Positions 13,116-19,694 of a stretch of 64,000 bases of DNA are shown piece by piece. The notes beneath the pieces are model-generated. The model had not been told where the DNA came from and ran no database searches. It worked only from the letters and a program-made list of their open reading frames with translations. Position numbers and translations under genes: made by a program. The stretch is from the human T2T-CHM13v2.0 reference genome, Homo sapiens: NCBI RefSeq assembly GCF_009914755.1, contig NC_060928.1. The stretch is one strand, 5' to 3'. How positions within the stretch are numbered: position 1 is the first letter of the stretch; each line of letters starts with the position of its first letter.

Positions 13116-15889
13116 AGATCTTTACCGTGAAAACTGGGTAGGGCTCCTGGAGTTAAAGACCACAAAAATGCAACGACTCCCTCAAGACTGCAGCCCTCGG
13201 GAATTTCTCACTCTCACACTAGTCCACACTCAGCCTCCAAAATTTAGTTCAAAATTACCATTTAATGTACAATTCTTAATTGACTAATGTCAGTGGAAAT
13301 CTATGCCAAGGAGGTAATGATCAACACATCTAAAAGACTATTTGTTTTCAGATATACAACCATGGCATAAGCATTTGTCTAGAAAGTTTCTGTGAAGCAT
13401 CCCTTTAAAATGAATTTGTTTCTATGGACACCAAAAGCATGTGGCCACTTTACACCTACAGAAGATCTCAGAGCCAAGTCTTGGTAGCAGAGAGCCAAGG
13501 AGGAGTGACATGGGAGTCAGAGTGGCTGAAAGAGTGACCTTTCCTGGGGGCCCCTTGGGCTATGCTTCTGGAGGATGCAGCTCTAAGAGCTTCTCAGAAA
13601 CAACATACCAAGCAGGGATTTTATGTCTTACCCAAAGCACCTCCCTTTATCCTGCTGGTTGACTTTGTATCTATCCAGAGCTACTCAGTTTACACATCTG
13701 GCCAATGTCACACCATGTTGCCATGCCCTAAAATAATTTCACAGCCCCTATATACCTCCTACCTTCCTATTGTGGTGAGAGAATAAAGGTTCCAGTGTAC
13801 ATTTAGAGCAAAATAAAAATCTGGACGGAGTCGGGTGAAGTCACCTGGACAACTCTTGCAGATCACCAAAAAGACTTAATAAAAACAGCATGTTAAGGCT
13901 GCTCTGCCTGTGGAGTGAGTAGCCATACTTTTATTCCTTTACTTTCTTAATAAACTTGTCTTCACTTTATTCTATGGATTCGTTTCGAATTCTTTCTTGC
14001 ACGAGATCCAGTAACCCTCCCTTGGGGTCTGGATCGGGACCCCTTTTCAGTAACATCTTTTTGGCTAACCACAAAGGAACTATACTGAGGAGACCCCCGA
14101 TCCAAAGGAAATAAATTGCAGCACCGACTGGCCAACTTTGGGTAAGTGAGGTGTATTTACCCAGGTAAAGGATGGGATTGGGCTAGAGGCCCAACTTAGG
14201 AGAATGAGTCTCTCCTAAGACAGAGAGGGTAAAGGCCCCTCTTAATAAAAGGCAAGGATGCTTGACCTAACCCAGATTTGAGTCCCAACTTAGGAAGGTT
14301 AGAGTCCTTCCTAAGATTTAGGGGGTTGGAGACCCCTCTCAGTAAAGACCCTCTCAGCTAAGAATGGGTTTGGCACTACAGGGTGTTAACTGCTATTCTC
14401 TTTGGATTAATCTGCTTCTCACTCTTTGCTGATGGCTGTGGGTGACAGGATTAGGCATGTACAGGATCATGGGACATGGGGAGCTTTTTCCTCCCTAAAG
14501 GGGAATACTTAAGAGCTGATGGGACTGCTGGAACAGGTCCCTTCGAGACTGACAAGCAGCCGCCTGAACTTTTGATTCAGCAACGCTGTAACGGGTGGGT
14601 CTTTCTCTGGCCTCCCTGAGCATTTCACCTTCCCCACCCTGCTGCAGGCCATCCTTTTCTCTCTCTTCCTCTCCTTTCTCTTTTCTAACTTTTCTGTTAC
14701 TCAGGGGAACTGTCCACTCTTTCATCCTGCCCAGAAACCACGTGTTGAAAAATGTTCTTGGGAGCTTGACCTTATAACCGTGTGGCAGTACTTTCTCTTG
14801 GTCTCTGCCTTGGAGGAGGCTCATGTCATAGTTTGCCCTAAAAATTATCTTGAGCAGCTAAAAGCCTTTGCAAGTTCAAAATAAGCTGCTCTAGACTCCT
14901 TCTTGGAAGAGTAATAGAAACTGTCTAATGTTGTAGCACAGTAGCTAAGGTTTTGCCATTTTACAATTGCGGTTCAGATTCAATTCCTGGCTTAGGGAAT
15001 AAGTCTTTTTCTGGTTTGATATCTGTGTAACTTTGGCCACTTGTTAATTCTTGGTGCTTCCATGAATAACTCCTGGCTTCCCTTCTTAAATTTTCCTTTC
15101 TCTGAGCACAGAAATATTGACCTTTTGGCCTGGTTAAAGTTGGGTAATAAAAATTAAAAGGACTTTTTTTTTAAAGAGCACTGTGGTTAAAAGTCAGCTT
15201 AATTAAAAGTGGATATTTCAAGCTTTAATAGCCTAGAACTCCTTGGGAAAAACAGAGGAGGTGCTACAGACTCTGCTTTGGGAAAAATCTGTTTTCCTCA
15301 TGAAACCCCAGGAACTGAAAGTGGATAGATCGCTCTCAAAATCTAAGGCTCTTTTCTGTTTTGTATTGCATTATCTGATGTTTTTAACTTTTAGGGGTTT
15401 CAGAAAGTACTTCGCATTATGAGAGAGCATTGGTGTGTCATAACAAGGTAGGAAATATAGTTTTATGGATGGCTAATGGCAGTTATGGGGGGATACTCGG
15501 CTTTTTGCGCATTTAGATCAGAGAAGCATGCTCTTGGCTACCTAGAAAGTATGGCGAAGTCCCCACCCCCCACTGAAAGTTAAGACTCCTATGGGGATGG
15601 GCTGATCCCCTCTTTTGGGGATCCAGGATCTGGTATAAAAATAGGACCCTTAATTTTGGGGACCTGTTTTTACCTTCCAGCTGAGCCTACTTATTCAGGG
15701 GTAAAAAGTGCATACCTTCCTGGACCTGTTCCTCCAAGGGCTCCACCCTGAAGCCAGTAATTCAATTAAGAAACTGGGAAATGAAAAATTTTACAAGTAC
15801 TAGATCTTCTTCTGTCTGTGTATTTATATGTGTTGTGTGTGATGTTTATATATGAAAAAGCTTTAATTGGTTTAAAAATAATAAGTGCT

Positions 15890-16191
15890 GGCCAGGCACG
15901 GTGGCTCACACCTGTAATCCCAGCACTTTGGGAGGCTGAGACAGGTGGATCACGAGGTCAGGAGATCAAGACCATCCTGGCTAACATGATGAAACCCCGT
16001 CTCTACTAAAAATACAAAAAATTAGCCGGGCGTGGTTGCGGGCGCCTGTAGTCCCAGCTACTCAGGAGGCTGAGGCAGGAGAATGGCGTGAACCCAGGAG
16101 GTGGAGCTTGCAGTGAGCCAAGATCCCACCACTGCACTCCAGCCTAGGCAACAGAGCGAGACTCTGTCTCAAAAAAATAAAAAAATAAAAA
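15890..16191 (+). mobile_element. AluY inside MER41 internal sequence
   Basis: Y diagnostics 'gagatcaagaccatcctggctaaca', 'gaatggcgtgaacc', 'ggagcttgcag'; TSD aataagtgct. Confidence 0.92.
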
Positions 16192-16436
16192 TAAGTGCTT
16201 AAATCAAATATTTTCTCAGAAAAGTAAAAACTGCAATGCCTTTAATTCATGTGACTTAAGTAATCTTTGGGAAATAGAAACAGTTCTACATGCAAGGCAT
16301 GTAAGAAAAGTGAAATGTGTTTTTGGTAAAAGATTGTAGGAAGTCATGGGAATGTGTTTCTGTGTTTGTTTGTTTGTTTGTTTGTTTGTTTGCCTAAAGA
16401 GTTAAAGGATTATTTTAACTTAAATAGGATAAAGCC

Positions 16437-18147: not shown

Positions 18148-18455
18148 GGCCAGGCACAGTGGCTCACACCTGTAATCCCAGCACTTTGGGAGGCCGAGGT
18201 GGGTGGATCACTTGCAGTCAGGAGTTTGAGACCAGCCTGGCCAATATGGCAAAACCCTCTCTCTGCTAAAAATACAAAAATTAGCTGAGTGTGGTGGCTT
18301 ATGCCTGTAGTCTCAGCCACTCAGGAGGCTGAGGCAGGAGAATTGCTTAAACCTGGGAGGTGGAGGTTGCAGTGAGCCAAGATTGTGCCACTGCACTCCA
18401 GCCTGGCTGACAGAGTGAGACTCTGCCTCAAATTAATTAATTAATTAATAAAATA
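18148..18455 (+). mobile_element. AluSx-like inside MER41 internal sequence
   Basis: Full dimer; TSD aaaa(c/g)agcttatgt. Confidence 0.9.
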
Positions 18456-19694
18456 AAAAGAGCTTATGTGAAAAATAATCATTCTTGCTGAACTTTATAC
18501 AAATAATCAGGCCAAGTATAATAATGCAAATCAGTCTTACCATGATTTCTCATTAGTAAAAATGGGAAACTGGAGATAGAAAAATTATATTTCAAAAACT
18601 ATGGTACACTTGTTATTAAATTCTGGTCTCATCGGTTGTTTTTACGTTTTACGCTTTTGTCTATAATTTAGACTAACTAACTCTGCTTATTCCTGCACAC
18701 CAACCAGTGATCTCTAACTGCAGCTCAGAAAAAACAAGAGGAATGGGTAATGTAAAAATTCAGATCAGTATTCTAATTCTGGGCAGATACTGGAATCAGC
18801 TAGCAACCTCATATTAGCTTGGTTCCAGCAGTTGCCCAGTTCATGAAAAGCCTACCTATTTAGTTTATTTGGGATAATTTTCCTTTACTGTTGTGGAATA
18901 TATTGTTGTTGTACTCTTTGTGTAGGAATGCAGGATAAGCTTACTCAATGTTTTCTTAAATTGAACACTTATTAATCTTCCAGATATCACCTTTTATGAG
19001 AACTCAGAGTTACGAATTGCCCTCACCACACTGATGCTTTCTGACTGAGTTCCACTCTACCCTGAATACAAGAGGCAGGAATATCATTGCCCCTGTTCAG
19101 CCTGAAGAAGTTACAGAATATGGATCTTTATCCCTTTACAACCCTTAAGATTAAGGATTCTCTTATAAAAGGGAAGGGGGAAATGTCAGAGGTGTTTGAA
19201 CCAGAACAACCCCATTTTGAATAGGGGCTGGGTAAAATAAGGCTGCGACCTGCTGGGCTGCATTCCCAGATGGTTAGGTATTTTAAGTCACCAGATGAGA
19301 TAGGAGGTCAGCACAAGATACAGCTTATCAGGTCATAAAGACCTTGCTGATAAAACAGGTTGCAGTAAAGAAGCTGGCTAAAACCCACCAAAACCAAGAG
19401 AGTGACCTCTGGTCATCCTCCCTGCTACACTCCCACCAGCACCATGACAGTTTACAAATGCCATGGCAACATCAGGAAGTCACCCTATATGGTCTAAGAA
19501 GGGGAGGCATGAATAACCCACCCCCTTTTTTTTAGCATATCATCAAGAAATAACCATAAAAATGGGCAACCAGCACCCTCCAGGGCTGCTCTGCCTATGG
19601 AATAGCCATCCTTTTATTCCTTTACTTTCTTAATAAATTTGCTTTCACTTTCAAGAAAAAAAACCCAGCACGTTAATTTTATTATTGCAAGAAT

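What the first reader, a model, noticed from the sequence alone, without database searches (positions are those of the whole stretch)
13881..19676. MER41A-type processed copy records the LTR's transcription start and polyA site
Seen: left flank AAAAACAGCATGTTAA (13881-13896), then R starting GGCTGCTCTG. The same R start recurs at 19584, about 29 bp downstream of a TATA-like CATAAAA (19555). The 3' end stops about 14 nt after AATAAA (19632) and is followed by an A-run and CCCAGCACGTTAA, matching the left flank (core CAGCA(T/C)GTTAA). PPT, a PBS resembling tRNA-Arg (from recall) and an unused splice donor are retained, so the template was unspliced. AluSx/Sg/Y insertions inside it set a minimum age. 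Inference: the ends mark the U3/R and R/U5 boundaries in the ancestral germline transcript.
Basis: partly seen in the sequence, partly recalled or inferred. Interest (0 to 1): 0.72.

Follow-up and report, generated by a model that had tools for sequence, protein, structure and literature searches.

The report
LINE-1-copied MER41 retroviral RNAs, including micro-copies
This is a DNA copy of an old endogenous-retrovirus (MER41) RNA, likely pasted in by LINE-1; many sister copies, most of the poly(A)-ended ones only about 67 bases long, share its ends, which therefore likely mark where the ancient RNA began and ended, in a virus group not found reported to spread this way.

Summary
Observation confirmed and extended. 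13897-19651 reads R-U5-internal-U3-R plus an A-run inside a decayed target-site duplication (TSD), with no U3 before and no U5 after. A second such copy lies in the same window (50300-45345, minus strand). Genome-wide, 13 of the 30 best 5' matches lack U3 and start at the same R base. 46 of 665 forward R-end motifs are followed by an A-run, against 0 of 525 for a U3 control. Six spliced copies leave at the donor this copy retains. Unexpectedly, 35 of 60 poly(A)-ended loci, and 6 of 60 unselected ones, are the ~67-nt R region alone between TSDs. Best reading: LINE-1 retrocopies of capped, polyadenylated MER41 RNAs, as in HERV-W, which a review calls the only HERV group so mobilised. Refinements: the start is likely 13898 plus a cap-derived G; the family's usual poly(A) site is 13 nt after AATAAA; the PBS cannot be called Arg rather than Trp; the Alu minimum age is unproven. 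A hairpin across the U3/R junction remains a rival for the micro-copies. CAGE, Dfam and Pavlicek 2002 could not be checked.

The parts
13881..13896 (+). left target-site duplication
   Evidence: core motif only here and at 19666
13897..13968 (+). 5' R region; first G likely cap-derived, start likely 13898 (inferred)
13969..14055 (+). U5, ending in CA
14062..14080 (+). primer-binding-site-like motif, Arg/Trp type, 6 nt past the LTR end as in sister copies
14141..14146 (+). splice donor (exon ends 14141, GT at 14142), unused here, used in six sister copies
14056..19183 (+). MER41-type internal region, no Pfam match in three + frames of the non-Alu stretches given
15679..15681 (+). splice acceptor used in sister copy L228 (junction read by eye; alignment begins at 15717)
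15890..16189 (+). Alu 1 with own TSD (AluY-like, recalled)
16437..16740 (+). Alu 2 with own TSD; junction not shared by 39 other top loci
17591..17593 (+). main splice acceptor (pyrimidine tract + CAG), used in L227, L229, L231
18148..18453 (+). Alu 3 with own TSD, at a site hit by Alus in 17 other copies
18670..18672 (+). splice acceptor region used in L232 (and about 20 nt upstream in L230)
19167..19183 (+). polypurine tract
19184..19583 (+). U3 of MER41A type (43 nt shorter than the second copy's U3)
19555..19562 (+). TATA-like CATAAAAA, 29-30 nt before the inferred start
19584..19651 (+). 3' R region with AATAAA at 19632-19637
19652..19676 (+). remnant poly(A) tail and right target-site duplication
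45320..50320 (-). second, independent processed copy (body 50300-45345) with MER41B-type U3, A8 tail and TSD

Best explanation
This is an R-U5-internal-U3-R copy of a MER41A-type endogenous retrovirus with an A-tail and flanking duplication, likely made when LINE-1 reverse-transcribed an unspliced, capped and polyadenylated RNA, so its ends likely mark the LTR's transcription start and poly(A) site. Shown: the anatomy; the same 5' base and poly(A) position in many independent copies; spliced sister copies from the retained donor to at least three acceptor regions; and a large class of copies of R alone. Inferred: RNA polymerase II started about 30 nt after the TATA-like box at the second G of R. 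The RNA was cleaved either at the first poly(A) signal it met, 67 nt on (giving R-only RNA from a solo or 5' LTR), or at the 3' LTR (full-length or spliced RNA). LINE-1 ORF2p nicked an A-rich target, primed on the poly(A) tail and often copied the cap as an extra G. This happened in germline or early embryo cells, since the copies are inherited. Lacking U3, the copy has no LTR promoter at its 5' end and is probably inert.
For: Anatomy and shuffles. Second copy with identical 5' start. 13 of 30 top 5' matches lack U3 and share the start; 16 have U3; 1 is broken by an Alu. Of 14 full-length-type copies starting at R, 8 show an A-tail and a TSD (6 clear, 2 partial). A-run after the R-end motif in 46 of 665 forward matches versus 0 of 525 for a U3 motif (p=1e-7 on forward counts). 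R-only copies: matched flanks score 18.6 versus 12.0 for mismatched, 0 of 10000 permutations. Six spliced copies. Extra G: in 5 copies whose 3' LTR has C/T at that position the 5' end has G (3) or A (2), never C/T; C/T occurs in 6 of 16 intact 5' LTRs versus 0 of 13 free ends (p=0.02; 0.04 with duplicates collapsed). Same hallmarks as HERV-W pseudogenes (PMC5537654, PMC5016936, passages); cap-G rule (PMC4859970, passages).
Against: This copy's TSD is decayed and on its own only modestly significant (9 of 535 A-run 40-mers score as well). Two of the 14 copies showed no TSD (L053, also no tail; L054) and four 3' ends were broken or not reached. Three free 5' ends start with C or T (L077, L100, L153), against a universal cap G. 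An inverted repeat straddles the U3/R junction with its loop at the inferred start, so processing or stalling there could mimic a start. No RNA data were available. No parent provirus was found (best 83-87% identity).
Confidence: 0.9

Rival explanations
1. The R-only copies are not copies of a short RNA but 5'-truncated copies of long transcripts, cut or stalled at the hairpin that the end of U3 forms with the start of R in the 3' LTR.
For: A 7-8 bp stem spans the junction in both LTR types, with the loop's 3' edge within 1-2 nt of the 5' ends. LINE-1 copies are often 5'-truncated, and copies truncated inside U3 exist (L087, L117).
Against: The 5' base is the same as in full-length and spliced copies, where it is the RNA's own end. 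A stall would be expected at the stem's base, about 7 nt further in (inference). The TATA-like box lies 29-30 nt upstream in both LTR types. R-only copies rarely start with C/T (2 of 35, versus 5 of 21 at that position in U3-bearing copies).
Confidence: 0.2
2. The element is an ordinary provirus that lost U3 on the left and U5 on the right by later deletions.
For: Old proviruses are often deleted; the TSD is imperfect.
Against: Both breaks fall on positions shared by many unrelated loci; an A-run and a duplication of about 16 nt flank it; spliced sisters exist.
Confidence: 0.02
3. The shared 5' end marks a strong processing site in transcripts that began further upstream, not the transcription start.
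For: Hairpin across the junction; L232 carries about 10 U3-like bases before R.
Against: Extra purine in 5 of 5 paired B-type copies; TATA spacing; no cluster of starts further upstream among 30 loci.
Confidence: 0.07

Closest known systems
HERV-W processed pseudogenes (PMC5016936, PMC5537654; passages read)
   Same: R-U5 and U3-R truncated LTRs, poly(A) tail, A-rich target, TSD of roughly 10-17 nt; LINE-1 as likely motor; fixed start and end on the LTR.
   Different: Group is MER41 (placed in the HERVW9 supergroup, PMC5753468 table, PMC4724089), with no recognisable coding domain here. PMC5537654 calls HERV-W the sole HERV group so mobilised. R-only copies were not mentioned in the passages seen. 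In MER41 they outnumber U3-bearing poly(A)-ended copies (35 versus 22 of 60).
MER41A / MER41B LTRs (PMC2897888, PMC9963469; passages read)
   Same: Both window copies carry the MER41B-derived M2 motif; the second copy has tandem GAS-like sites 21 bp apart; the first lacks a 43-nt block, the MER41A hallmark.
   Different: Known as interferon-inducible enhancers; no description of their transcript ends or retrocopies was found.
LINE-1 retrocopies of non-coding RNAs and 'retro-DNAs' (PMC11195612, passages; PMC7692494, search listing only)
   Same: LINE-1 copies used as a fossil record of transcripts; tail and long TSD.
   Different: Source here is an LTR promoter and its own poly(A) signal, giving one fixed ~67-nt unit.
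Spliced HERV-H and HML-2 rec retrocopies (recalled, not read)
   Same: Spliced ERV RNAs re-inserted as processed copies.
   Different: From recall these are few; they already qualify the claim that HERV-W is unique.

Membership tests
LINE-1-processed ERV pseudogene (HERV-W type) | 5' LTR reduced to R-U5 | tested here: met
   no U3 upstream, 145 of 300 shuffles equal
LINE-1-processed ERV pseudogene (HERV-W type) | 3' LTR reduced to U3-R | tested here: met
   no U5 downstream, 93 of 300 shuffles equal
LINE-1-processed ERV pseudogene (HERV-W type) | poly(A) tail after the poly(A) signal | tested here: met
   short decayed tail 19653-19663; family-wide
LINE-1-processed ERV pseudogene (HERV-W type) | variable-length TSD | tested here: met
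   about 16 nt, one change and a 2-nt indel; modest significance alone
LINE-1-processed ERV pseudogene (HERV-W type) | TT/AAAA-like insertion motif | tested here: inconclusive
   AAT/AAAAA at 13878-13885; A-rich in sister copies by eye, not counted
LINE-1-processed ERV pseudogene (HERV-W type) | empty orthologous site in an outgroup | not testable with these tools
   no primate genomes held
MER41A LTR | similarity to MER41 sequence | tested here: met
   published M2 motif matches 19519-19546 and the second copy by eye
MER41A LTR | 43-bp deletion removing the tandem GAS of MER41B | tested here: met
   second copy's U3 positions 364-406 absent from this type
MER41A LTR | best hit in Dfam/RepeatMasker among MER41 subfamilies | not testable with these tools
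   no repeat library; two searches found no printed MER41 sequence
tRNA-Arg-primed ERV | PBS complementary to tRNA-Arg 3' end | tested here: inconclusive
   R/W-type motif with one extra base; the same motifs are typed R by one method and W by another
HERV-W group | LTR17/HERV17 sequence with gag-pol-env remnants | tested here: not met
   LTR is MER41-type; no Pfam domain

The most novel reading that the evidence does not exclude
MER41 is a second major LINE-1-mobilised HERV group whose hundreds of retrocopies form a fossil germline transcriptome (one start, one main poly(A) site, one donor, several acceptors), and whose commonest product is an undescribed SINE-like unit: a ~67-nt capped, polyadenylated R-only RNA from premature polyadenylation in the LTR, scattered as portable poly(A) signals (about 50-270 copies among the 1315 exact-motif loci alone).
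Probability: 0.55. Interest if true: 0.75.

Novelty: new variant of a known kind. Interest (0 to 1): 0.62.

Why it matters
It challenges the printed view that only HERV-W was spread by LINE-1 and gives a second group for asking what makes an ERV RNA a LINE-1 substrate. It gives base-level start, splice and poly(A) maps for an LTR family studied as immune and placental enhancers, in cells that cannot be assayed (ancestral germline). R-only copies suggest these LTRs often ended transcription at their own first poly(A) signal. Practically, about 15% of MER41 R ends (9 of 60) are not proviral or solo LTRs, so counts, LTR-LTR dating and enhancer enrichments that treat all fragments as LTRs are skewed. 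The R-only screen can be run on every LTR family.

Tried and rejected
Pfam scan of three + frames of three non-Alu internal stretches and the right flank: no family at E<=0.01 in 12 translations. Search for a parent provirus: none above 87% identity. Idea that Alu 3 was inherited from the parent lineage: 17 copies carry an Alu near the site, but offsets run from -13 to +17 nt, TSD lengths differ and Alu identity is only about 77-86%, so independent insertion is favoured; L205 shares offset and TSD variant but its Alu is 82% alike. 3' ends of L043 and L045 were not in the fetched stretches; those of L032 and L052 are broken. 8 of 15 donor-pattern hits belong to another element without MER41 LTR upstream and 1 is unspliced with a changed donor. 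Printed MER41 sequence not found. Pavlicek 2002 and Chuong 2016 are not held. Earlier scan findings were not available. The script stopped at L016 in its second table; those loci are classified.

Full report
Observation. The window holds R (13897-13968), U5 (to 14055), an internal region with three Alus, a polypurine tract, U3 (19184-19583), R again (19584-19651), a short A-rich tail and a duplication of the left flank. The R copies match at 62 of 68 aligned columns. U3 does not align upstream (145 of 300 shuffles equal) nor U5 downstream (93 of 300). The TSD differs by one C/T change and a 2-nt indel; its core is found only at 13886 and 19666, but its score is reached by 22 of 9114 window 40-mers and 9 of 535 that hold an A-run, so the case rests on more than this TSD.

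Family. The U3 carries a motif that PMC2897888 (passages) assigns to MER41B. It lacks a 43-nt block present in the second window copy, the difference that PMC9963469 (passages) gives for MER41A versus MER41B. The second copy has two GAS-like sites 21 bp apart, as PMC2897888 describes for MER41B. No repeat library was available. The non-Alu internal stretches given have no Pfam match. The PBS-like site starts 6 nt past the LTR end, as in sister copies, and resembles motifs typed Arg by one method and Trp by another in PMC4724089 (passages and supplement rows).

A second copy. 50300-45345 on the minus strand begins at the same R base, ends 13 nt after its (mutated) hexamer with an A8 tail, and has its own TSD. 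It is 72-83% identical to the first copy in the long non-Alu blocks and lacks its Alus, so it is an independent event.

5' ends. Of the 30 best matches to R-U5-leader that were fetched (40 listed; the 30 include both window copies), 16 have U3, 13 lack it and 1 is broken by an Alu; all 13 start within about a base of the same position. With L065 there are 14 such copies. An A-tail and TSD were seen in 8 (both window copies, L035, L058, L059, L065; partial in L040, L041), a tail without TSD in L054, neither in L053; four 3' ends were broken or not reached. In five copies whose own 3' LTR has C or T at the first position (second window copy, L041, L052, L053, L058) the 5' end has G three times and A twice. 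C/T occurs there in 6 of 16 intact 5' LTRs and 0 of 13 free ends (p=0.020; 0.041 with duplicate pairs collapsed). Untemplated G from the cap is a known LINE-1 mark (PMC4859970, passages). I infer that the start is the second G (13898; 19585 in the 3' LTR), 30 nt after the TATA-like box. Against this, L077, L100 and L153 start with C or T; the test (5 of 21 versus 2 of 49, p=0.022) left out L153, L159 and L189.

3' ends. The exact R-end motif occurs 1315 times. It is followed by seven As within 3 nt in 46 of 665 forward matches; the 75 reverse matches are inflated by overlaps, giving at least 75 loci in all. A U3 motif with 525 copies is never followed by seven As within 30 nt. The same R-end motif runs into one common U5 start 364 times. 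In 40 of 58 scored loci the tail starts 13 nt after the hexamer. This copy's end at 14-15 nt is a minor variant.

Splicing. A pattern for the exon end not followed by G gave 15 loci. Six are spliced: three to the acceptor at 17593, one near 15681, two near 18650-18672. None of the six has a full U3. Eight are another element and one is unspliced. So the donor at 14142 is real and this copy came from unspliced RNA.

R-only copies. I examined 60 of the 64 distinct loci in the first 100 rows together (2 more were fetched; 2 were not fetched). The script called 39 R-only, 19 with U3 and 2 unaligned. By eye, I moved L088, L117 and L124 to U3, L130 to R-only, and set aside L105, L110 and L129, giving 35 R-only, 22 with U3 and 3 unclear. 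R-only loci read TSD, about 67 nt of R, tail, TSD. On the 39 script-called loci, matched flanks score 18.6 against 12.0 for mismatched pairs, 0 of 10000 permutations reach it, and the own pair is best in 18 of 39. In an unselected sample, the first 60 chromosome-1 hits of the R-end motif, 9 end at the poly(A) site: 6 R-only, 2 with U3, 1 unclear (95% interval for R-only 4-21%). That implies about 50-270 R-only copies among exact-motif loci and more among diverged ones (extrapolation). Several tail-junction variants point to several source LTR types.

Mechanism. Shown: shared ends, tails, TSDs, splice junctions. Inferred: polymerase II start under the TATA-like box; cleavage either at the first poly(A) signal (R-only RNA) or at the 3' LTR; LINE-1 target-primed reverse transcription in germline or early embryo. 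The main rival for R-only copies is truncation at a hairpin formed by the U3 end and R start, whose loop lies at the inferred start; it cannot be excluded without RNA data.

Age. Each Alu has its own TSD. Alu 2's junction is private among 40 loci. Alu 3's site holds Alus in 17 other copies with differing offsets, consistent with repeated insertion rather than inheritance. Seven or eight loci run across Alu 1's junction and were not fetched. No parent was found, so the minimum-age argument is likely but unproven.

Literature. PMC5537654 (abstract, passages) calls HERV-W the sole HERV group mobilised by LINE-1; PMC5016936 (passages) gives the hallmarks; PMC11195612 (passages) names only HERV-W; PMC4724089 says it did not separate pseudogenes from proviruses. 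Searches pairing MER41 with processed-pseudogene, retrocopy, R-U5/U3-R or CAGE terms and one on R-region retrocopies listed no paper whose title or abstract start describes MER41 retrocopies or R-only copies; of these I read passages of PMC5753468, PMC4724089, PMC9963469, PMC10194239 and two bioRxiv preprints, and listings only for the rest. Pavlicek 2002, which by recall surveyed other families, was not held, nor were Repbase/Dfam notes, and preprint supplements are closed. Spliced HERV-H and HML-2 retrocopies are known from recall. Novelty is therefore probable, not established.

Verdict. The single locus is a new member of a known kind; the family-wide pattern and the R-only class make it a new variant. 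Interest 0.62.

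Noticed in passing
window 50300-45345 (-): Second processed MER41 copy with B-type U3 and tandem GAS-like sites, inserted in L1-like sequence (recalled); the predicted lncRNA LOC105377343 exon 46418-46347 lies inside it, between an AG acceptor close to the one used by spliced sister copies and a GT donor.
   Followed up: partly
window 18140-18150; L198-L214: Alu insertion hot spot in the MER41 internal region: 17 other copies have an Alu within -13 to +17 nt, in the same orientation, with differing TSDs. 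The search selected for such loci, so no rate can be given.
   Followed up: partly
window 15880-15890: Seven or eight other copies appear to carry an Alu at the Alu 1 site too; possibly a second hot spot.
   Followed up: no
window 19570-19595; L007, L046, L056: Inverted repeat across the U3/R junction kept in both LTR types; at the RNA's 5' end the same R bases fold instead with R positions about 20-27. A possible switch between 5' and 3' ends.
   Followed up: partly
L078 (C1:202862690-202863355); L064/L065: An R-only copy inserted antisense into the R region of another MER41 LTR; a full copy inserted into another MER41 internal region.
   Followed up: no
window 18780-18930 (+): A read-through frame resembles the end of a retroviral env transmembrane segment (recalled); no Pfam match.
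   Followed up: no
window 19690-20200 (+): Right flank translates to L1 ORF2-like sequence (recalled; no Pfam match), starting just after the TSD; the left flank does not look like L1.
   Followed up: no
L218-L224, L226: Another repeat family shares the MER41 leader and donor-region sequence with the donor G changed to A and no MER41 LTR upstream.
   Followed up: no
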